5,723 nucleotides of DNA from Naegleria gruberi (taxonomy: Eukaryota): the NCBI GenBank assembly GCA_000004985.1, contig GG739159.1. One strand, written 5' to 3'. The notes beneath the pieces are model-generated. The model saw only the letters and a list, made by a program, of their open reading frames with translations, had not been told where the DNA came from and ran no database searches. A program made the position numbers and the translations under genes. Shown here one piece after another: positions 1 to 5,723 of the stretch (within the stretch, counting starts at the first letter, position 1; every line of letters begins with the position of its first letter).

Positions 1-1077
1 ATGCAGAGTACCAAAAAAAGTAAACATTATTATTCAATGTTTGCATTTGTTCAGGCATATTCAAAGGGTATATTGACATGGTTGGTTTCTTTGTTTACAA
101 AAGTATATTCCATTCCAATAGATAAATTTGATGATGAAAGTACATGGACTTCTTTACAGGAAGAGAAATTTCGAAAATTCATACAAGAGATGGAGAAAAA
201 TCCAACAATTGCTACATTATGTCATCTAATGAGATTAGGTTTAGATAATATTGAAATGAAAGAGTATATTCGAAATAATGATTCAAAATCATTGAGAGAA
301 TTATTGCCACAACGTTTGAAATTATATCTTGTACAGAAACGACGAAGATATTTCAATCTAATCAGTAATCAGATAAGACAAAATGTTTTCCTAGAATCCA
401 AATATCCAAATTTCCTGTCGTTTCTAGATAGAAACAAATCTATCTGTTTTTCCAATAATAATTATATGGCCAATGATGAATTTGTTGAGTTTGTACATAG
501 TGAAATCAAAGATGCACGGATTGCTAGAGATGAAAAGACTATTGGAAAGTCCATTCAAAAGAGAGTGTATGCAAATCAATTTGTTAGAGAATTGAAAAGT
601 TTCAAAACTTACAAAGAAACAGAATCATCTTGGGATTTGTCATCAAGTGTGAATGAAATTGTGAATTTACTTAATAAGCGTATAGGATTTGACAAGTCTT
701 CCATTTCTACATTTCATGCCAATCATAGGAAGAATATTGTTAATATTTTTACGTCCAACCATGCAGAGATTTTACCAAATGATGATCCTAAATTCAAATA
801 CGATAGCATCAGTGAAACAAAATTATTGGAATCTTTCACCAAAACAATTGAAAACACTCCCAATGACTCCACACAATCCAAGGATTTAAATTTAATTATT
901 TTAGATGATGATCCATTAAATACTAGTCAAGATTGTATCAGTAGTCCTTCAAAGAAGAGAAAAACACAAAGTGAACCATTGTTAATGGCCCCTCTCACAC
1001 AAGTAAACAAATCTAAACAGGGCCACAATGAATCAGCAACCTTCAATGTAGAGTTGCGAGGAACGATGCAACGTTAG
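1..1077 (+). CDS. Hypothetical N/K/S-rich protein of unknown function (358 codons). It flanks the retrotransposon, and the last 32 nt including the stop lie inside repeat A1. It may be 5'-partial at the window edge.
   Basis: Long open frame 1 over 1-1077, far longer than expected by chance in AT-rich DNA. It has a KKRK basic patch (SPSKKRKTQ) and an acidic-hydrophobic LIILDDD stretch. I recognise no conserved domain. It terminates at TAG 1075-1077, 30 nt inside the element's 5' repeat. Confidence 0.4.
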   Translation: MQSTKKSKHYYSMFAFVQAYSKGILTWLVSLFTKVYSIPIDKFDDESTWTSLQEEKFRKFIQEMEKNPTIATLCHLMRLGLDNIEMKEYIRNNDSKSLRELLPQRLKLYLVQKRRRYFNLISNQIRQNVFLESKYPNFLSFLDRNKSICFSNNNYMANDEFVEFVHSEIKDARIARDEKTIGKSIQKRVYANQFVRELKSFKTYKETESSWDLSSSVNEIVNLLNKRIGFDKSSISTFHANHRKNIVNIFTSNHAEILPNDDPKFKYDSISETKLLESFTKTIENTPNDSTQSKDLNLIILDDDPLNTSQDCISSPSKKRKTQSEPLLMAPLTQVNKSKQGHNESATFNVELRGTMQR

Positions 1078-1176
1078 TATTTCGACAAATTGTAAACAAT
1101 AAAATTGAGTTGATAAATAATTTTATGCTCAAAAAAATTAAGTATATTGAAATGGTTCAAACACCAAGCAAGGCGA
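1046..1176 (+). repeat. Split direct repeat A1 (131 bp), the 5' terminal repeat. It contains the gag 5' leader and the first codons of gag.
   Basis: Base-by-base comparison shows identity with 4984-5114 (131/131). The two copies diverge immediately after ...caagcaaggcga, continuing 'atatttcc' in one and 'cccaccca' in the other. Confidence 0.9.
1112..1119 (+). promoter_or_regulatory. TATA-like GATAAATA inside repeat A, about 30-40 nt upstream of the Kozak-context ATG at 1152. A second copy sits at 5050-5057 in A2.
   Basis: This is a sequence motif only and the genome is AT-rich, so the call is weak. Its position would place a transcription start just upstream of ATG 1152 (gaaATGg). Confidence 0.15.
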
Positions 1177-2177
1177 ATATTTCCAACATTCGTCAAAGAG
1201 TTTCAGCAAGCAAATCCTCAACTTCTACCTACAAGTCAGGTTACATCCCAGTAACTGACAATGGTAGCTCAGCTTCACTCCCCTCTGTGGTTGACCCAAC
1301 ATCCAAAACCTTGGATAACAACCAAGCTGGTTCTGAAAAGAACCTTGATGCTATTCTCAACGCCATCACTTCTTTGGGTGAGAGAATAAAGCATCTCGAA
1401 GCTGTTCCTCCTGTTCTGCAACAAGCTAATCAACTTGATGAAGACCCTGATGAGGAATCCGCTGATGAGGATTTCACTGGTAAACATTGGGGTCTAACTA
1501 CTATCAAGGAGATTAGACGTAACTACGAAGTTGGTGATAGACTATCCGATGGAGATGTCTTAAGTTTTGTCTCAGCCAAAACACTTCGTCATTACTCTTC
1601 CAATGAGGCGTTGTTGAATAGAGTTCAAGTTTTGATGGCTCGATTTGAATCTGTCATTCACAACTCTCGTAACTATCCTCGTCTGCAAGAAATTCAATCC
1701 AAAGGCTTGCAAAAGATGATGGAAATGTTACATTTGAAGTCTAAATTACTTCAGTTTGCTCTGAGCCATCCATTAAATGTAACCAACATCATTGAAATCA
1801 CTGAGTTGGTGTTTCTTCTCTCTGAGGTTGAGAAAATCTTTTTAGAAGAAGGTTTATTCGAAAGTAACTTTGATGTTGCGAACCAATTTATTCAACCCTT
1901 CATCCAAAGCAACACGTTTGCTGATATAACAGAAAAAGCTCGCCAAAAGAAGAGAGAGAAATCTGTAGTAAAGCATGCCATTACCAGCAAGATCCAAAAA
2001 CCTCTAAAGATGAAAGAAAAGTTTCAAAAACCGTCCTCTCATCAAGGTGGCATCCCTAACAGCTATTCAAAGCCATTCAACAATTACAACAAGAGTGGTT
2101 CCTCTTTTCAAAAGTCAGGAGATTCCAAGCCAAAGTACAATAACAATGGTGGAGGAGCTTTCAAACAAGACCTCTGA
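1125..2177 (+). CDS. gag-like ORF1 of the retrotransposon in frame 3 (350 aa). An alternative start at ATG 1152 has the better Kozak context.
   Basis: This is the first long ORF of the element, directly 5' of and overlapping the RT ORF, which is the position of gag in DIRS-type elements. It has a predicted helical or coiled stretch (LDAILNAITSLGERIKHLEA), an acidic tract and a basic K/N/S-rich C-terminal tail. There is no CCHC zinc knuckle. The ORF-track start at 1110 is a TTG, and the first ATGs are at 1125 and 1152. The stop is TGA 2175-2177. Confidence 0.55.
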   Translation: MLKKIKYIEMVQTPSKANISNIRQRVSASKSSTSTYKSGYIPVTDNGSSASLPSVVDPTSKTLDNNQAGSEKNLDAILNAITSLGERIKHLEAVPPVLQQANQLDEDPDEESADEDFTGKHWGLTTIKEIRRNYEVGDRLSDGDVLSFVSAKTLRHYSSNEALLNRVQVLMARFESVIHNSRNYPRLQEIQSKGLQKMMEMLHLKSKLLQFALSHPLNVTNIIEITELVFLLSEVEKIFLEEGLFESNFDVANQFIQPFIQSNTFADITEKARQKKREKSVVKHAITSKIQKPLKMKEKFQKPSSHQGGIPNSYSKPFNNYNKSGSSFQKSGDSKPKYNNNGGGAFKQDL

Positions 2178-4032
2178 CTTGGTAGGTTGCCGTCTCAACA
2201 AGTTTGTACCTCAGTGGGAGAGTTACAACTTCAACCCATTTATAGTGGATTGGATTCGAAATGGAGTCCCAATCTACTCAAATCCCACCCTTTGGAAAGA
2301 ATTCAAACAAAGGAAGAATTTCTCTCCAAAGGAAACCTCTTGGATGGATCAGGAAATCCAAGAGATGCTGAGTTCCAATGTAATAGAGATTGGAAACAGT
2401 TCAACAATATTGAACCCAATAAACATTGTACCCAAGAAGGGTTCGGATCAATTTCGCTTTATTCTAGACCTAAGGAAGGTCAATTTAGGAATAAAGGACA
2501 GTTCCTTCAAGATGGACAACATTCAAAGATGTTTGAAATTTGTTCAGAAGGGAATGTGGGCAACAAAGATAGACCTGAAGAAGGGTTACTTCCACGTTCC
2601 AATCAGGGAGAAACATCGCAATCTCCTTGGATTCAGGTACAAGGACAAGATTTATCAGTTCAAATGCCTACCGTTTGGGCTAAGTCAAGCTCCCAGAAAT
2701 TTCACAAAGATTATGAAAGAGTTAGTGACCAAGTGGAGAAAGCAGGGTATTCTAGTATTTATTTACATAGACGATATTTTGATTCTAAACAACAGCAAAG
2801 AAACTACCCAACTGCTCACAGACATAGTCATGAAGGATCTGGAGACATTGGGATGGATAATCCAGAAAGAGAAAAGCGTATTAGCACCGTGTCAACACAT
2901 AGAGTTTCTCGGTCTGGAACTGGATCTCGTACTTGGCCTTGTGAAAATCCCAGTCAACAAACAATCAACAGCCTTAGAAATGATTCAAAAATTCTTATCA
3001 GCAAACCAACGGAACAGGTTTGTAGCATGCAAGAAAGTAGCACAATTCCTCGGAAAGATGGAATTTCTAACTCTTTCAAACCATTACTTTGCTCCCTTTC
3101 TTGCTCGTCTTCGGAAGGATATGGTGAAAGTAGTAAACGACAAATCTTGGCACGCATCAATGAGAATATTCAGAGGTGCAGCGAAGGATCTAAATATTTT
3201 GAAAGATCTGATTCAGAAAAACAGTGGAATTCCCTTCGAACTGAATTCAACGAACCCAATTCGAGTGAATTCAGATGCCTGCCCAACAGGCTATGGAATT
3301 CACGCAGAGTCAACCATTACAATTGGAAGATTCACTTCCTCAGAACACATCAATGTGAAAGAGTTAAAAACACTCCTCATTTTCTTCACACAAGCAGATC
3401 GGTTAAACCTTTATGGTCCTGGACAAGCATTCGAAATCAGAGGCGACAATGTTACAGCAATTTCCTATATAAGGAGAGGTTACGGAGTCATAGAAGAACT
3501 CTCTCAAATCGCCAGAGACCTCTACAAGATCTTGATGAGAAGAAAATGGTGGATTTCAAAGGTGATTTACATTCCCTCAAAGGAGAACAATCTAGCAGAC
3601 AGACTGAGTCGCTTAACAGAATGGAAATCATCTCAAGAACTACTGCATCTAGTTCAGACAGAATTTGGAGAGCACCATGTGGACAGATTCGCGACATCGG
3701 AATCAACCACAACAATTCAATTCAACTCATGGATAGAGAACGACACATTCTTGAATCCATGGGAACAAAATCTGATGAGTTATTGTGTTCCTCCTCTGGG
3801 TCTGATATCTCAAGCTCTAGTTCATTGCATAAAATCAGAAGCGAAAGCGACATTTGTAGTTCCAGACTGGCCCTCTTCGATATGGTTTCCAGTCTTGCTA
3901 AAGATATCAGAAAGGATAATACCTGTTTCCCGAAAGATGCTTATAATAACGCCCTTGTCAGAGTTGCAAGACAAGTTCGAGACTTCCAATTTCCTGGTTG
4001 TTCAAGTGCATGGCAAGTTGTTCAAGCAATAA
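2146..4032 (+). CDS. Reverse transcriptase / RNase H polyprotein in frame 1. The frame is open from at least 2047, and the first ATG is at 2146 with an acaATGg context.
   Basis: RT blocks are present: NPINIVPKKGSDQFRFILDLRKVN, KIDLKKGYFHVP, FKCLPFGLSQAPRNF, FIYIDDILI (YIDD codons 2764-2775) and FLGLEL. RNase H has the catalytic Asp in RVNSDACPTGYGIH (Asp codon 3274-3276) and a C-terminal NNLADRLSRL motif. About 140 further residues follow before the stop TAA 4030-4032. Confidence 0.88.
   Translation: MVEELSNKTSDLVGCRLNKFVPQWESYNFNPFIVDWIRNGVPIYSNPTLWKEFKQRKNFSPKETSWMDQEIQEMLSSNVIEIGNSSTILNPINIVPKKGSDQFRFILDLRKVNLGIKDSSFKMDNIQRCLKFVQKGMWATKIDLKKGYFHVPIREKHRNLLGFRYKDKIYQFKCLPFGLSQAPRNFTKIMKELVTKWRKQGILVFIYIDDILILNNSKETTQLLTDIVMKDLETLGWIIQKEKSVLAPCQHIEFLGLELDLVLGLVKIPVNKQSTALEMIQKFLSANQRNRFVACKKVAQFLGKMEFLTLSNHYFAPFLARLRKDMVKVVNDKSWHASMRIFRGAAKDLNILKDLIQKNSGIPFELNSTNPIRVNSDACPTGYGIHAESTITIGRFTSSEHINVKELKTLLIFFTQADRLNLYGPGQAFEIRGDNVTAISYIRRGYGVIEELSQIARDLYKILMRRKWWISKVIYIPSKENNLADRLSRLTEWKSSQELLHLVQTEFGEHHVDRFATSESTTTIQFNSWIENDTFLNPWEQNLMSYCVPPLGLISQALVHCIKSEAKATFVVPDWPSSIWFPVLLKISERIIPVSRKMLIITPLSELQDKFETSNFLVVQVHGKLFKQ
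2178..3881 (+). other. Stop-free overprinted reading frame (frame 3). It runs from the gag TGA to the YR start, overlapping RT/RNase H in the -1 frame, and encodes an S/R/Q-rich low-complexity sequence.
   Basis: Frame 3 has no stop from 2178 to 4937 (916 codons). About 568 of these (2178-3881) overlap the frame-1 RT gene. In AT-rich DNA roughly 1 triplet in 13-20 is a stop, so this run cannot be chance. A dual-coding arrangement of this kind is known for the RT and recombinase ORFs of DIRS1. Confidence 0.5.
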
Positions 4033-4937
4033 GGGATCTTAGTATCCTTTCATCAATAGCTGAGAAAACATTCAGAACTTATAATAGAATTTATGGTGGT
4101 TTTCTCTGGTTTATCAATGTGTTTGATCTCACCATTGATGATCCTATAGCTATTGAATATTACATCTCATACCTCTTGATAAATATTCAAGGATACAAAG
4201 CAAAAACTGTGCAAGCAGCAATTCAATTCTTTGCTAACCTTGATGGCAAACCCATTACCATCTCTGCCTCCTACTCTAAGGTTAAAAAAGGTGTACTGAA
4301 ACTTTATACACTCTCGGATAAAGTTTCTCTTCAAAGAGATCCAATTACAGTCAAACATTTGACTGATTATGTGAAGTGCAAAGACAAAGTGGACAATTTC
4401 ACTTTTCGACTCACTTCTGCTATTCTAGTGGTTGGTTTCAGACTATTTGCAAGACCTGGTGAGGTTGCGCGCTTAAAATGGTCCTATATCAAGGTTCTCA
4501 AGAATGGAAAAATCAAAATTGACCTCAGTGGTCACAAAACTGATTTCTTCCTTATTGAAAAACCAATTACTATTGACAAGAATACAAAGAATCCAAGTCT
4601 TTGCCCAATAACCCTACTAAATTCGTATATGGATTTGGTTCGTGAATTTAAAGATGACGATTCTCCTTTGTTTTCCTACGAAAACAACAAATTCCTTGAT
4701 TCAAATGATATTTCTAAGATACTCAAGAATGCGGTGGGTATGGTTGACCAAGATGTGAGAGTTTCTGGGCACAGCATTAGAATTGGAGCCATCACAGAAG
4801 GACTTAGAAAAGGTGTTTCTACTTCAGATCTCATGGTTGGTGCAAGACATAAGAAAACCAACAGTTTATTTCCTTATCTACGATCTGAGGGTCTTGCTGG
4901 CAAGAATTTCACAGACACCTTATTTTCTCTGGACTAA
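3882..4937 (+). CDS. Tyrosine recombinase (lambda-integrase family) in frame 3. ATG 3882 is the nearest in-frame ATG upstream of the domain and would give a 351-aa protein. The frame itself is open back to 2178.
   Basis: The catalytic signature is present: Arg in FARPGEVARLKW (about 4452-4454), H-x-x-R in GHSIRIGAIT (His 4770-4772, Arg 4779-4781), His in GARHKK, and the nucleophile Tyr in NSLFPYL (codon 4875-4877). The stop is TAA 4935-4937, directly abutting repeat B1. Confidence 0.78.
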   Translation: MVSSLAKDIRKDNTCFPKDAYNNALVRVARQVRDFQFPGCSSAWQVVQAIRDLSILSSIAEKTFRTYNRIYGGFLWFINVFDLTIDDPIAIEYYISYLLINIQGYKAKTVQAAIQFFANLDGKPITISASYSKVKKGVLKLYTLSDKVSLQRDPITVKHLTDYVKCKDKVDNFTFRLTSAILVVGFRLFARPGEVARLKWSYIKVLKNGKIKIDLSGHKTDFFLIEKPITIDKNTKNPSLCPITLLNSYMDLVREFKDDDSPLFSYENNKFLDSNDISKILKNAVGMVDQDVRVSGHSIRIGAITEGLRKGVSTSDLMVGARHKKTNSLFPYLRSEGLAGKNFTDTLFSLD

Positions 4938-4985
4938 CCCATTGGTTTATCAACGATTGTTTTATTGTTTCTTTTGGAGAAATAT
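4937..4985 (+). repeat. Split direct repeat B1 (49 bp), the internal copy of the 3' terminal repeat. It lies immediately 5' of A2 and shares 'at' with it.
   Basis: Identical (49/49) to 5603-5651: acccattggtttatcaacgattgttttattgtttcttttggagaaatat. Confidence 0.85.
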
Positions 4986-5114
4986 GTAGAGTTGCGAGGA
5001 ACGATGCAACGTTAGTATTTCGACAAATTGTAAACAATAAAATTGAGTTGATAAATAATTTTATGCTCAAAAAAATTAAGTATATTGAAATGGTTCAAAC
5101 ACCAAGCAAGGCGA
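4984..5114 (+). repeat. Split direct repeat A2 (131 bp), the internal copy of the 5' terminal repeat. It includes a duplicated gag start codon at 5090.
   Basis: Matches 1046-1176 at 131/131 with an offset of 3938 nt. The duplicated ATG at 5090 reads MVQTPSKATHPPVPLFETSGIP and then reaches a stop after 22 codons. Confidence 0.9.
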
Positions 5115-5602
5115 CCCACCCACCCGTTCCCTTATTTGAAACTTCAGGAATTCCTTGAATTCCTTCAATTAGTATTTCACTCCTTGAGTGTTTTTCCTCT
5201 TTGTCTTTTAGATCGATCTTGGTAAGTGATCCTTCTATGGATGCAGGATTAGTATCACCTTGTGATACAATAATTTTTATTTCTAACTAACATCATTTGA
5301 ATAATTCGAAATATGCTCGTAAAGTAAGCCAGATTTATTTTTTCAAAAAATATTTCTGATGGAAATTACCAGGCATTTTTTTACAAGCAATTCACCTTTT
5401 AAAACTTTAATGGATTGGAGTTTTTACCGATTTTTTCCTGCAATGCAGGTTTTTTATAGGGGAGTTGTTCTACTTCAATCTCGATTTTGTAAACAACTTT
5501 ATTAACTCGGGACAATGCTGAATAAAGTCAATGACCTAAAAGGCAGCATTTCTGAGCAACATACCTCATCCTTTGGATGAAGAATATGTTGAGTGAGCTT
5601 CT
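5115..5602 (+). other. Unique 488-bp non-coding spacer between A2 and B2 (3' untranslated or structural region of the element).
   Basis: There is no ORF of 60 aa or more on either strand. The region contains CCCACCCACCC (5115-5125), a tandem 9-mer GAATTCCTT x2 (5148-5165), short hairpins (5252-5268, 5437-5449), T-runs and an AATAAA at 5521-5526. Confidence 0.5.
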
Positions 5603-5651
5603 ACCCATTGGTTTATCAACGATTGTTTTATTGTTTCTTTTGGAGAAATAT
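5603..5651 (+). repeat. Split direct repeat B2 (49 bp), the 3' terminal repeat of the element.
   Basis: Identical to 4937-4985. Similarity to the first copy ends at 5651/5652, with 'atata' here against 'atatg' at the B1/A2 junction. Confidence 0.85.
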
Positions 5652-5715
5652 AACAAATACAAAAGTACGTCTTTGCATTTGTTGTACACTGAGTAATCGT
5701 TAGTTCTGAGAGCAC

Positions 5716-5721
5716 AATAAA
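5716..5721 (+). promoter_or_regulatory. AATAAA hexamer in the 3' flank, a possible polyadenylation signal of the interrupted flanking gene.
   Basis: This is a sequence motif only, about 65 nt downstream of the element's end. AT-rich DNA makes chance occurrence plausible. Confidence 0.2.
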
Positions 5722-5723
5722 AA

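What the first reader, a model, noticed from the sequence alone, without database searches (positions are those of the whole stretch)
1046..5651. Apparently intact, young tyrosine-recombinase retrotransposon (DIRS/Ngaro/PAT superfamily)
A 4.6-kb unit encodes a gag-like protein, an RT with YIDD and all major RT blocks, an RNase H, and a C-terminal lambda-integrase-type tyrosine recombinase with a complete R/H-x-x-R/H/Y catalytic set. It has no DDE integrase or aspartic protease, and no LTRs. All three ORFs are uninterrupted, and the terminal repeats are 100% identical at 131/131 and 49/49. This suggests very recent transposition and a potentially active copy. YR retroelements are patchily distributed and poorly annotated. 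Each new family says something about how a recombinase, rather than an integrase, is used for insertion.
Basis: partly seen in the sequence, partly recalled or inferred. Interest (0 to 1): 0.8.

Follow-up and report, generated by a model that had tools for sequence, protein, structure and literature searches.

The report
Intact tyrosine-recombinase retrotransposon in Naegleria
The window holds a complete, apparently functional copy of a known but rare kind of jumping gene, a retrotransposon that inserts with a tyrosine recombinase, in the amoeba Naegleria gruberi; it is a new family of a known kind, and its recombinase is encoded in a 919-codon reading frame laid over the whole polymerase gene.

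Summary
Positions 1046-5651 are a 4.6-kb tyrosine-recombinase (YR) retrotransposon with perfect split direct repeats: A1 1046-1176 = A2 4984-5114, and B1 4937-4985 = B2 5603-5651. All coding frames are intact. The window is a whole 5,723-bp Naegleria gruberi scaffold.

- The polymerase (pol) also carries a Dam-like methyltransferase (MT) domain.
- The recombinase frame is open for 919 codons and overlaps all of pol. It has 0 stop codons where about 37 are expected.

Both are known marks of DIRS1/PAT-type elements and argue against Ngaro. The termini are PAT-type, with no inverted repeats. The reverse transcriptase (RT) is nearest to DIRS-like references (36% identity, against 26% for PAT-like). 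It is only 30% identical to the Repbase N. gruberi element DIRS-1_NGr. I call it a new family of a known kind.

One point may be new. In six independent related lineages, gag ends in TGA-C, the recombinase frame continues in the gag frame directly after that single stop, and pol lies at +1. This suggests one leaky stop that gives Gag, Gag-Pol and Gag-bridge-recombinase. That reading is inferred, not shown.

The parts
1..1047 (+). Host flank: an ORF of Naegleria gruberi, cut by the insertion near its 3' end.
   Evidence: The 358-aa ORF 1-1074 is 100% identical to 'predicted protein [Naegleria gruberi]', carried on a contig of exactly 5723 nt. Its last 10 codons come from repeat A1. GC is 29% here, against about 39% in the element. 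If the flanks are rejoined with one copy of 'AT', the ORF runs 14 more codons to a stop.
1046..1176 (+). Split direct repeat A1 (left terminus). It contains the gag start codons at 1125 and 1152.
   Evidence: 131/131 identical to 4984-5114. The start GTAGAGTT is conserved in relative L001.
1125..2177 (+). ORF1, a gag-like protein assigned by position. It has a Ser/Thr-rich N-terminus, a helical middle part and a basic, Asn-rich tail.
   Evidence: ORF. No Pfam family matches. It can be aligned with ORF1 of 6 relatives at 17-80% identity. The AlphaFold2 model is uninformative, with pLDDT 39.
2175..2178 (+). The gag stop codon in the context TGA-C; the proposed recoding site.
   Evidence: TGAC is the only invariant nucleotide block at the gag end. 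It is present in 6 independent lineages. The degenerate N. fowleri copy has TGA-A. The pol frame reads xxT-GAC (Asp) across it.
2014..4032 (+). ORF2, pol, at +1 relative to gag. Domains: RT (2428-2922, YIDD 2764-2775), RNase H (about 3271-3612) and a Dam-like methyltransferase domain (3619-3927).
   Evidence: RVT_1 E = 2.5e-24 and Dam E = 7e-6. RVT_1 is found in 6 of 6 members, Dam in 6 of 6 and RVT_3 in 3 of 6. PDB profile hits: Ty3 RT at 8e-27 and caulimovirus RT-RNase H 8r0s over positions 27-480. Invariant residues D366, E395, D423 and D474 are; coordinates are. The conserved motif GGRLxxFxxxW begins 3 codons after the gag TGA.
2178..4029 (+). 'X' region: 617 codons in the gag frame (-1 relative to pol), kept free of stop codons over all of pol. 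The proposed translational bridge to the recombinase.
   Evidence: 0 stops, against 36.8 +/- 4.4 expected from synonymous-codon shuffles of pol (minimum 23 in 1000 shuffles). The result is the same in 5 relatives. There are no stops in the 116 codons before the first ATG of this frame, where 8.3 are expected. Amino-acid identity to L004 is 73%, against 92% for pol. Substitutions follow the pol codon positions.
3972..4937 (+). Tyrosine recombinase at the C-terminal end of the 2178-4934 frame. Catalytic residues: R 4452-4454, K 4536-4538, HxxR 4770-4781, H about 4848, Y 4875-4877.
   Evidence: Alignment A2. Phage_integrase matches 5 of 5 members, best E = 5.5e-10. The profile hits XerA and Cre, with Y aligned to Cre Y324.
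4937..4985 (+). Split direct repeat B1. It starts at the YR stop codon and abuts A2. B1|A2 is an internal copy of the junction between the two ends.
   Evidence: 49/49 identical to 5603-5651. The start of B, CCCATT[AG]GTTTAT, and the junction AT|GT are conserved in L001, L002 and L004.
4984..5114 (+). Split direct repeat A2.
   Evidence: 131/131 identical to A1. Relative L002 has the equivalent A1 61-306 = A2 4079-4324 at 97%.
5115..5602 (+). Unique non-coding 3' region between A2 and B2. It begins with CCCACCCACCC.
   Evidence: No ORF of 60 aa or more, no tRNA or Rfam match, GC about 31%. Function not tested.
5603..5651 (+). Split direct repeat B2 (right terminus).
   Evidence: 49/49 identical to B1.
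5652..5723 (+). Right host flank. It continues the interrupted host ORF. There is no target-site duplication.
   Evidence: the left flank ends ...CCTTCAAT and the right flank starts AACAAATAC. Only 'AT' is shared with the B|A junction.

Best explanation
Identity. Positions 1046-5651 are an intact, autonomous tyrosine-recombinase retrotransposon of the DIRS order, in the genome of Naegleria gruberi. It has inserted near the 3' end of a host ORF without a target-site duplication. It combines PAT-type termini (split direct repeats A1 ... B1A2 ... B2) with a DIRS-like pol (RT, RNase H and a probably inactive Dam-like methyltransferase domain) and a Cre/Xer-like recombinase.

Replication cycle (inferred from the published model for elements with split direct repeats, not tested here). 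A transcript that lacks the outermost ends is reverse transcribed. The internal B1|A2 copy supplies the sequence needed to restore and join the two ends into a circle. The recombinase then crosses the B|A junction (...AAATAT|GTAGAG...) with a target that shares 'AT'.

Expression. What is shown: the recombinase lies at the end of a 919-codon frame that is held open across all of pol. This frame is the gag frame and starts directly after the single gag stop, TGA-C. Pol is at +1 and its conserved part starts three codons after that stop. What is inferred: most ribosomes stop and make Gag. Some shift +1 at or near the UGA and make Gag-Pol. Some read through the UGA and translate the unconstrained 'bridge' to make a Gag-X-recombinase fusion.
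For: Element structure:
- Repeats.
- Domains and catalytic residues.
- No protease or integrase family found.
- Host identity and the rejoined host ORF, with no target-site duplication.
- The same layout in L001, L002, L004, L005, L006 and L076, and in a decayed N. fowleri copy.
- An A1/A2 repeat in L002 and conserved junction motifs.

Overlapping frame:
- 0, 0, 2, 0, 0 and 0 stops in the overlap frame, against 29-41 expected.
- Ty3/gypsy-like pols from the metagenome scan mostly have alternate-frame ORFs of 70-260 codons (two outliers, 432 and 725), a negative control.
- The published literature lists the long pol/YR overlap and the MT domain as DIRS1-like features and SDRs as the PAT-type feature: PMC3266345 and PMC6681497.

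RT affinity.

Recoding:
- TGA-C in 6 lineages, while pol stops are always followed by G and YR stops vary.
- The frame is open before its first ATG.
- L004 has no ATG in the pol frame upstream of the conserved N-terminal motif.
Against: - There are no expression data of any kind.
- No conserved RNA structure and no CUAG-type motif follows the TGA.
- The last sense codon of gag is not conserved, so there is no recognisable slippery site.
- The C after TGA is also the third base of a conserved pol-frame Asp codon. GAC against GAT is a synonymous choice, but the two constraints cannot be fully separated.
- Openness of the pol frame upstream of the TGA is explained by composition, so it says nothing about where the shift occurs.
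- Other DIRS-like elements join the three frames differently (L010, L008, L009), so any mechanism is specific to a lineage.
- Deep nodes of the RT tree are unresolved, with less than 30% bootstrap support.
- Copy number and activity in N. gruberi could not be assessed.
Confidence: 0.85

Rival explanations
1. It is a Ngaro-like element. These also have split direct repeats and the order gag, RT/RNase H, YR.
For: The SDR pattern A1 ... B1A2 ... B2 is shared by the Ngaro, PAT and VIPER groups (PMC6681497).
Against: - A Dam-like MT domain is present in 6 of 6 family members.
- The pol/YR overlap is 617 codons long. Ngaro lacks MT and usually lacks overlaps (PMC3266345).
- RT identity to Ngaro references averages 25%, against 36% to DIRS-like references.
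Confidence: 0.03
2. It is a composite: a Ty3/gypsy-type or other retroelement lying next to, or nested with, an unrelated YR element such as a Crypton. It would then not be one unit.
For: The best solved-structure match of the RT is Ty3. Cryptons carry a YR alone.
Against: - The same gag / pol / YR arrangement, with the YR frame interlocked with pol, recurs in 6 relatives at 52-58% pol identity.
- The split repeats bracket the whole unit.
- There are no LTRs, protease or integrase.
- Relatedness of DIRS RT to Ty3/gypsy is expected (PMC3266345).
Confidence: 0.02
3. The 919-codon frame is open for a reason other than translation through it, or the recombinase is made without readthrough. It could start at an internal AUG (2529 or later), at a non-AUG codon, after a -1 shift out of pol, or on a spliced or subgenomic RNA.
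For: - The long pol/YR overlap is known in about half of DIRS1-like elements, with no established expression mechanism (PMC3266345).
- X evolves almost freely at the amino-acid level.
- No stimulatory structure follows the stop.
- L010 reaches its long frame at -1 from gag.
Against: - Chance or composition is excluded: observed stops lie more than 8 SD below the synonymous-shuffle expectation in every intact member, and gag and host ORFs show no such depletion.
- Internal AUG initiation does not explain why the 116 codons upstream of the first AUG are stop-free (8.3 expected, P < 1/3000), nor why the frame opens exactly at the gag stop in all members.
- A late shift out of pol would not need the whole frame to be open.
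Confidence: 0.45
4. The perfect repeats and intact frames reflect an assembly consensus of several copies on a small unplaced scaffold, and not one young insertion.
For: The window is an entire 5.7-kb scaffold. Repeats break assemblies: the related contigs end inside A or B.
Against: - Unique host sequence is attached at both ends and rejoins into one ORF.
- The model for SDR elements predicts A1 = A2 and B1 = B2 at insertion (PMC6681497).
Confidence: 0.15

Closest known systems
PAT-like elements (PAT of Panagrellus redivivus, Kangaroo of Volvox, SkowPAT; DIRS order)
   Same: - Split direct repeats in the order A1 ... B1, A2, B2.
- gag, then RT/RNase H/MT, then YR.
- No target-site duplication (PMC6681497, PMC3266345).
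   Different: The RT is only 26.5% identical on average to PAT-like references (maximum 34.5%) and does not group with them in the NJ tree. A 488-nt unique segment lies between A2 and B2.
DIRS1-like elements (Dictyostelium DIRS-1 and Repbase DIRS-n families with inverted terminal repeats)
   Same: - Nearest RT references: mean 35.9% identity, maximum 40% to DIRS2_DPu.
- MT domain present.
- Long overlap of the YR ORF with pol, with the catalytic part in the non-overlapping 3' end (PMC3266345).
- L007, a relative with ITRs, has the same gag - TGA - long ORF arrangement.
   Different: There are no inverted terminal repeats and no internal complementary region. The termini are direct and split.
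Repbase DIRS-1_NGr (Naegleria gruberi), classed as PAT-like by Ribeiro et al. 2019
   Same: Same host species and same order of elements.
   Different: RT identity is only 29.8% over 121 aligned residues, and the RNase H and YR segments are also divergent. It is a different family.
Recoding at a stop codon: gag-pol readthrough in gammaretroviruses, and +1 frameshifting at UGA in antizyme mRNAs (the yeast OAZ1 site GCG-UGA-C is recalled from memory, not checked)
   Same: A single in-frame UGA lies between gag and a downstream frame. Reading GAC after skipping the U gives the pol frame.
   Different: No downstream pseudoknot or conserved stimulator was found. Use of one stop for both outcomes is hypothetical.

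Membership tests
DIRS order (tyrosine-recombinase retrotransposons) | Reverse transcriptase with the catalytic YxDD motif | tested here: met
   RVT_1 E = 2.5e-24. YIDD lies at 2764-2775.
DIRS order (tyrosine-recombinase retrotransposons) | RNase H domain downstream of the RT | tested here: met
   Invariant D366, E395, D423 and D474. RVT_3 is found in 3 of 6 members. The profile aligns through the RNase H of 8r0s.
DIRS order (tyrosine-recombinase retrotransposons) | Tyrosine recombinase with R, K, HxxR, H/W and Y, in place of a DDE integrase; no aspartic protease | tested here: met
   No rve or RVP family was found at E <= 0.1-1.
DIRS order (tyrosine-recombinase retrotransposons) | Insertion without a target-site duplication | tested here: met
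   The flanks share no duplication. Only 'AT' is common to the target and the B|A junction. This rests on a single copy.
PAT-like | Split direct repeats A1 ... B1 A2 B2 | tested here: met
   131/131 and 49/49. The A1/A2 pair is also present in L002.
PAT-like | Methyltransferase-like domain in pol | tested here: met
   PF05869 is found in 6 of 6 members, best E = 2e-5, and at E = 7e-6 for the full ORF. All hits are below Pfam's gathering score. Motif IV reads C[VA]PP[LI], so the domain is probably inactive (inference).
PAT-like | RT groups with PAT-like reference elements | tested here: not met
   Mean identity is 26.5%, against 35.9% to DIRS-like references. The NJ tree puts the family next to DIRS-like references, but deep support is below 30%. 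PAT-like is itself not monophyletic in published trees (PMC6681497).
DIRS1-like (sensu stricto) | Inverted terminal repeats plus an internal complementary region | tested here: not met
   No terminal inverted repeat was found. There is only a chance-level complementarity: 27 nt, 81%, E = 7.4.
DIRS1-like (sensu stricto) | Long overlap of the YR ORF with pol, with the catalytic YR part in the non-overlapping 3' end | tested here: met
   The overlap is 617 codons, with 0 stops against about 37 expected. The YR domain lies at 3972-4934.
Ngaro-like | No MT domain and, as a rule, no ORF overlaps | tested here: not met
   Both an MT-like domain and the long overlap are present. RT identity to Ngaro references averages 25%.
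Ty3/gypsy LTR retrotransposons | Long terminal repeats, aspartic protease, DDE integrase | tested here: not met
   None was found. RT identity to Ty3/gypsy references averages 25.8%.
Repbase family DIRS-1_NGr | High sequence identity to the family consensus | tested here: not met
   29.8% RT identity over 121 residues of the published alignment row. The full consensus was not available.

The most novel reading that the evidence does not exclude
In this Naegleria lineage of DIRS-order elements, one conserved UGA-C at the end of gag acts as a three-way translational switch. Termination gives Gag. A +1 shift that skips the U and reads GAC gives Gag-Pol. Readthrough gives a Gag-X-recombinase fusion. 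On this reading, the 617-codon overlapping frame has no function of its own except to carry ribosomes past pol to the recombinase domain. This would explain the long pol/YR overlaps of DIRS1-type elements, which have been noted since the 1980s but never explained. It would also be a rare case of a reading frame selected only to stay open.
Probability: 0.25. Interest if true: 0.65.

Novelty: new member of a known kind. Interest (0 to 1): 0.4.

Why it matters
- It gives a complete, apparently functional reference copy for a YR retrotransposon family in Heterolobosea. Earlier work found N. gruberi copies too decayed to place in a tree (PMC3266345).
- It pairs a DIRS-like polymerase with PAT-type termini. 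This supports the view that the type of terminus is not a reliable phylogenetic marker within the DIRS order.
- The family offers a clean, testable case for how overlapping DIRS ORFs are expressed: a single conserved TGA-C at which the three frames meet.
- It also shows that an annotated N. gruberi 'predicted protein' is a host ORF fused to ten codons of the element.

Tried and rejected
- **gag fold.** AlphaFold2 on the single sequence gave pLDDT 39, which is unusable, so I ran no fold search. A family alignment could not be submitted.
- **RNA structure after the gag TGA.** RNAalifold on six relatives found nothing conserved.
- **Locating the frameshift from pol-frame openness upstream of the TGA.** Synonymous shuffles show that this openness is compositional, with P(0 stops) about 1 in three lineages.
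- **Scan of metagenome contigs with the pol alignment.** It returned 65 distant loci, mostly Ty3/gypsy-like, and no new family members. I used them only as a negative control for alternate-frame ORF length.
- **YR profile built from 5 family members.** It was too narrow to detect the YR of distant DIRS-like loci.
- **Homologue search with the whole 919-aa frame.** It found one protein, P0122 at 78% identity, which led to L004.
- **tRNA, Rfam and tandem-repeat scans of the window.** Nothing relevant was found.
- **Biopython NJ with bootstraps.** It timed out, so I replaced it with my own numpy NJ.
- **Copy number, empty-site allele and transcripts in N. gruberi.** No searchable eukaryotic genome or RNA-seq resource was available.
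- **Window against L004, looking for amino-acid constraint on X.** Third-position divergence of pol (24%) equals that of the non-overlapping YR (25%), so I found no clear constraint beyond stop avoidance.


Full report
**What is in the window.**
The window has two perfect direct repeat pairs: 1046-1176 = 4984-5114 (131/131) and 4937-4985 = 5603-5651 (49/49). A self-BLAST gives E = 1.5e-66 and 5.6e-21. B1 abuts A2, and the two share the dinucleotide AT. The order is therefore A1, coding region, B1A2, 488 nt of unique sequence, B2. [quoted passage not shown] Neither repeat finder nor a word-7 blastn finds terminal inverted repeats.

Under the standard code, gag runs from ATG 1125 to 2174 and stops at TGA 2175-2177. 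The pol frame is open over 2014-4029, at +1 relative to gag. The gag frame reopens directly after its stop and stays open over 2178-4934, which is 919 codons. The element has about 39% GC. The left flank has about 29%.

**Source and insertion site.**
The ORF 1-1074 is 100% identical to a 'predicted protein' of Naegleria gruberi, carried on a contig of exactly 5,723 nt. The window is therefore a complete small scaffold of that genome. The annotated protein is a chimera, because its last ten codons come from repeat A1.

If the element is removed and one AT is kept, the host ORF runs 14 more codons to a stop in the 72-nt right flank. There is no target-site duplication. Both points fit recombinase-mediated insertion. 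They rest on one copy only.

**Proteins.**
- *RT.* Pol matches RVT_1 at E = 2.5e-24, with YIDD at 2764-2775.
The match is below Pfam's gathering score, but it is found in all six family members and in many of the pol's more distant database relatives. Motif IV reads C[VA]PP[LI] and not (D/N)PP(Y/F). The domain is therefore probably inactive, as Iyer and Aravind state for DIRS1-type elements (PMC3537659). This point is an inference.
- *RNase H.* It is supported by invariant D366, E395, D423 and D474, by RVT_3 hits in 3 of 6 members, and by a profile alignment that runs through the RNase H of a caulimovirus polyprotein (8r0s).
- *Recombinase.* It is sub-threshold against Pfam for the window sequence alone (23-26 bits against 27.1). 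All five family members match Phage_integrase, best E = 5.5e-10. The family profile hits XerA and Cre, with the candidate tyrosine aligned to Cre Y324. R (ARPGE), K (GHKTD), HxxR (SGHSxRIGA), H/W and Y are conserved.
- *Absent domains.* No protease or DDE integrase family appears.
- *ORF1.* It has no family match and an unusable structure model, so 'gag' is a positional label.

**Relatives.**
The pol has no identical entry in the protein collection. Its best relatives are 52-58% identical proteins on 3-4.3-kb metagenome and Logan contigs, plus a decayed copy in N. fowleri. The long frame found one 78% identical protein.

I fetched the contigs L001, L002, L004, L005, L006, L076 and L003. All have the same layout: gag, a single TGA, a long ORF in the gag frame that ends in the recombinase, and pol at +1. 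L002 also shows the A1/A2 direct repeat, 246 nt at 97%. The start of B (CCCATT[AG]GTTTAT, directly after the YR stop) and the junction AT|GT are conserved.

**The overlapping frame.**
Across the 617 pol codons downstream of the gag stop, the gag/YR frame has 0 stop codons. Shuffling synonymous codons of pol, which keeps its protein sequence and codon usage, gives 36.8 +/- 4.4 stops, with a minimum of 23 in 1000 shuffles. The five relatives give 0, 2, 0, 0 and 0 stops, against 29-41 expected. The other alternate frame of pol, and both alternate frames of gag and of the host ORF, are full of stops. Ty3/gypsy-like pols from the metagenome scan mostly have alternate-frame ORFs of only 70-260 codons, with two outliers of 432 and 725.

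This feature is real, but it is not new. [quoted passage not shown] They note that Ngaro and VIPER lack MT and usually lack overlaps (PMC3266345). Three more distant DIRS-like contigs (L007, L008, L010) also have overlaps of 635-764 codons, always at -1 relative to pol.

**What constrains the overlap.**
I compared the window with L004, which differs by about 11% in nucleotide sequence across the overlap. Differences there fall 6.0%, 3.7% and 24.1% on pol codon positions 1, 2 and 3. The third-position rate is the same as in the non-overlapping recombinase, 24.9%. Amino-acid identity is 92% for pol, 73% for X, 87% for the recombinase and 82% for gag. X is Ser/Arg/Gln-rich. The frame is therefore kept open, but its sequence is nearly free. 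This is what one expects if ribosomes must pass through it, and not what one expects of a folded domain.

**Where the three frames meet.**
- In six independent lineages the gag stop is TGA followed by C. The decayed N. fowleri copy has TGA-A.
- TGAC is the only invariant nucleotide block in that region.
- Pol stops are TAA, TAG or TGA but are always followed by G. YR stops vary.
- The pol frame reads xxT-GAC across the site. GAC makes up only 32-50% of Asp codons in these elements.
- The conserved N-terminal pol motif GGRLxxFxxxW begins 3-13 codons later.
- L004 has no ATG in the pol frame before that motif.
- In the window and in L004, the X frame has no ATG for 116 codons after the TGA, yet it has no stop there, where 8.3 are expected (P < 1/3000).

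Together these points favour entry into both downstream frames from gag-translating ribosomes at this stop. One route is readthrough; UGA-C is a leaky context in eukaryotes (from my own knowledge). The other is a +1 shift that skips the U. This resembles antizyme; I recall the yeast OAZ1 site GCG-UGA-C from memory and did not check it.

Against this model:
- No conserved downstream structure exists.
- The last sense codon of gag is not conserved.
- Pol-frame openness upstream of the stop is compositional.
- L010, L008 and L009 join their frames differently.
- There are no expression data.
- A full-text search found no paper that discusses readthrough or frameshifting for DIRS ORFs, and the DIRS-1 mechanism paper does not mention either.

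**Classification.**
I took the RT alignment of Ribeiro et al. 2019 (PMC6681497, supplement 16) and added the window and its relatives. The window RT is on average 35.9% identical to DIRS-like (ITR-type) references, with a maximum of 40% to DIRS2_DPu. The averages for the other groups are:

| Reference group | Mean RT identity |
|---|---|
| PAT-like | 26.5% |
| Ty3/gypsy | 25.8% |
| Ngaro-like | 25.1% |
| VIPER-like | 18.7% |

In an NJ tree with 500 bootstraps, the Naegleria-type family is a 97% clade that sits beside DIRS-like references. Deeper nodes have less than 30% support, as in the published trees.

That alignment contains the Repbase entry DIRS-1_NGr from N. gruberi, which the authors class as PAT-like. 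The window RT is only 29.8% identical to it over 121 residues. N. gruberi was reported to hold seven DIRS1-like sequences in six families, too decayed for phylogeny (PMC3266345). N. lovaniensis has 89 DIRS fragments found by RepeatModeler (PMC6125883).

The element is thus a member of the DIRS order, PAT-like by its termini and DIRS-like by its polymerase. It is a different family from the one named Repbase element of this host. I could not check whether it matches another Repbase entry.

**Age and activity.**
The published model for SDR elements predicts A1 = A2 and B1 = B2 at insertion (PMC6681497), so identical repeats are consistent with youth. However, 180 bp of identity cannot exclude about 0.5% divergence, and a 5.7-kb scaffold may be a consensus of several copies. 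The stronger argument for a potentially active copy is that all frames are intact, including a 919-codon frame that any random stop would break, and that all catalytic motifs are present.

**Verdict.**
The element is a new member of a known kind. The conserved TGA-C junction of the three frames is a modestly novel and testable lead.

Noticed in passing
window 1-1077: The N. gruberi 'predicted protein' (P0121, 358 aa) is an annotation chimera. It consists of a host ORF whose last 10 codons and stop codon lie inside repeat A1 of the element. The ORF has no Pfam family and no other homologue among 5.8 billion proteins.
   Followed up: partly
L008:746-5260: This is a distant DIRS-like contig with 56% GC. 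Its gag, a 123-codon spacer ORF, pol and YR all lie in one frame and are separated only by in-frame TGA codons (TGA-G, TGA-C, TGA-C). This suggests either serial readthrough or a host that reads TGA as sense.
   Followed up: no
L010:28-4745: This is a distant DIRS-like contig in which pol follows gag in the same frame after TAA-ATG. A 1140-codon frame that ends in the YR starts 310 nt upstream of the gag stop, at -1. The wiring of the same three frames differs from the window's.
   Followed up: no
L007:236-5174: This DIRS-like contig (GCA_035092305.1) has true inverted repeats: 90 nt at 98% and 79 nt at 100%, consistent with ITR plus ICR. It has the same gag - TGA - 1083-codon ORF arrangement as the window, but its pol frame opens only 340 nt after the gag stop.
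   Followed up: partly
window 4030-4033 and the equivalent sites in L001, L002, L004-L006: The pol stop codon varies (TAA, TAG or TGA) but is followed by G in 6 of 6 elements. The gag stop is always TGA-C. The contrast fits strong termination at pol against weak termination at gag, but the overlapping frame also constrains these bases.
   Followed up: partly
window 5115-5602: This is the 488-nt unique non-coding segment between A2 and B2. It starts with CCCACCCACCC, which is a purine run on the minus strand exactly at the A2 boundary. It contains a short GAATTCCTT tandem at 5148-5170. It could hold priming or promoter signals.
   Followed up: no
window 1078-1104 versus 4960-4984 and 5626-5650: There is an imperfect 27-nt complementarity (81%, blastn E = 7.4) between the inside of A and the 3' part of B. 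It is at chance level as it stands, but it lies where a vestigial inverted terminal repeat would be.
   Followed up: partly
window 2179-4029 versus L004: Third-position divergence of pol is uneven along the overlap: 0.43 in 2479-2778, but 0.14-0.19 in 2179-2478 and 3379-4029. Parts of X next to the gag stop and next to the recombinase may be under some extra constraint. The sample is too small to judge.
   Followed up: partly
L003:8602-12460 (Naegleria fowleri VFQX01000017.1): N. fowleri carries a decayed copy of the same family. Its frames are broken, and no terminal repeats were detected within 7.5 kb. The family therefore predates the split of the two Naegleria species, or has moved between them.
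   Followed up: partly
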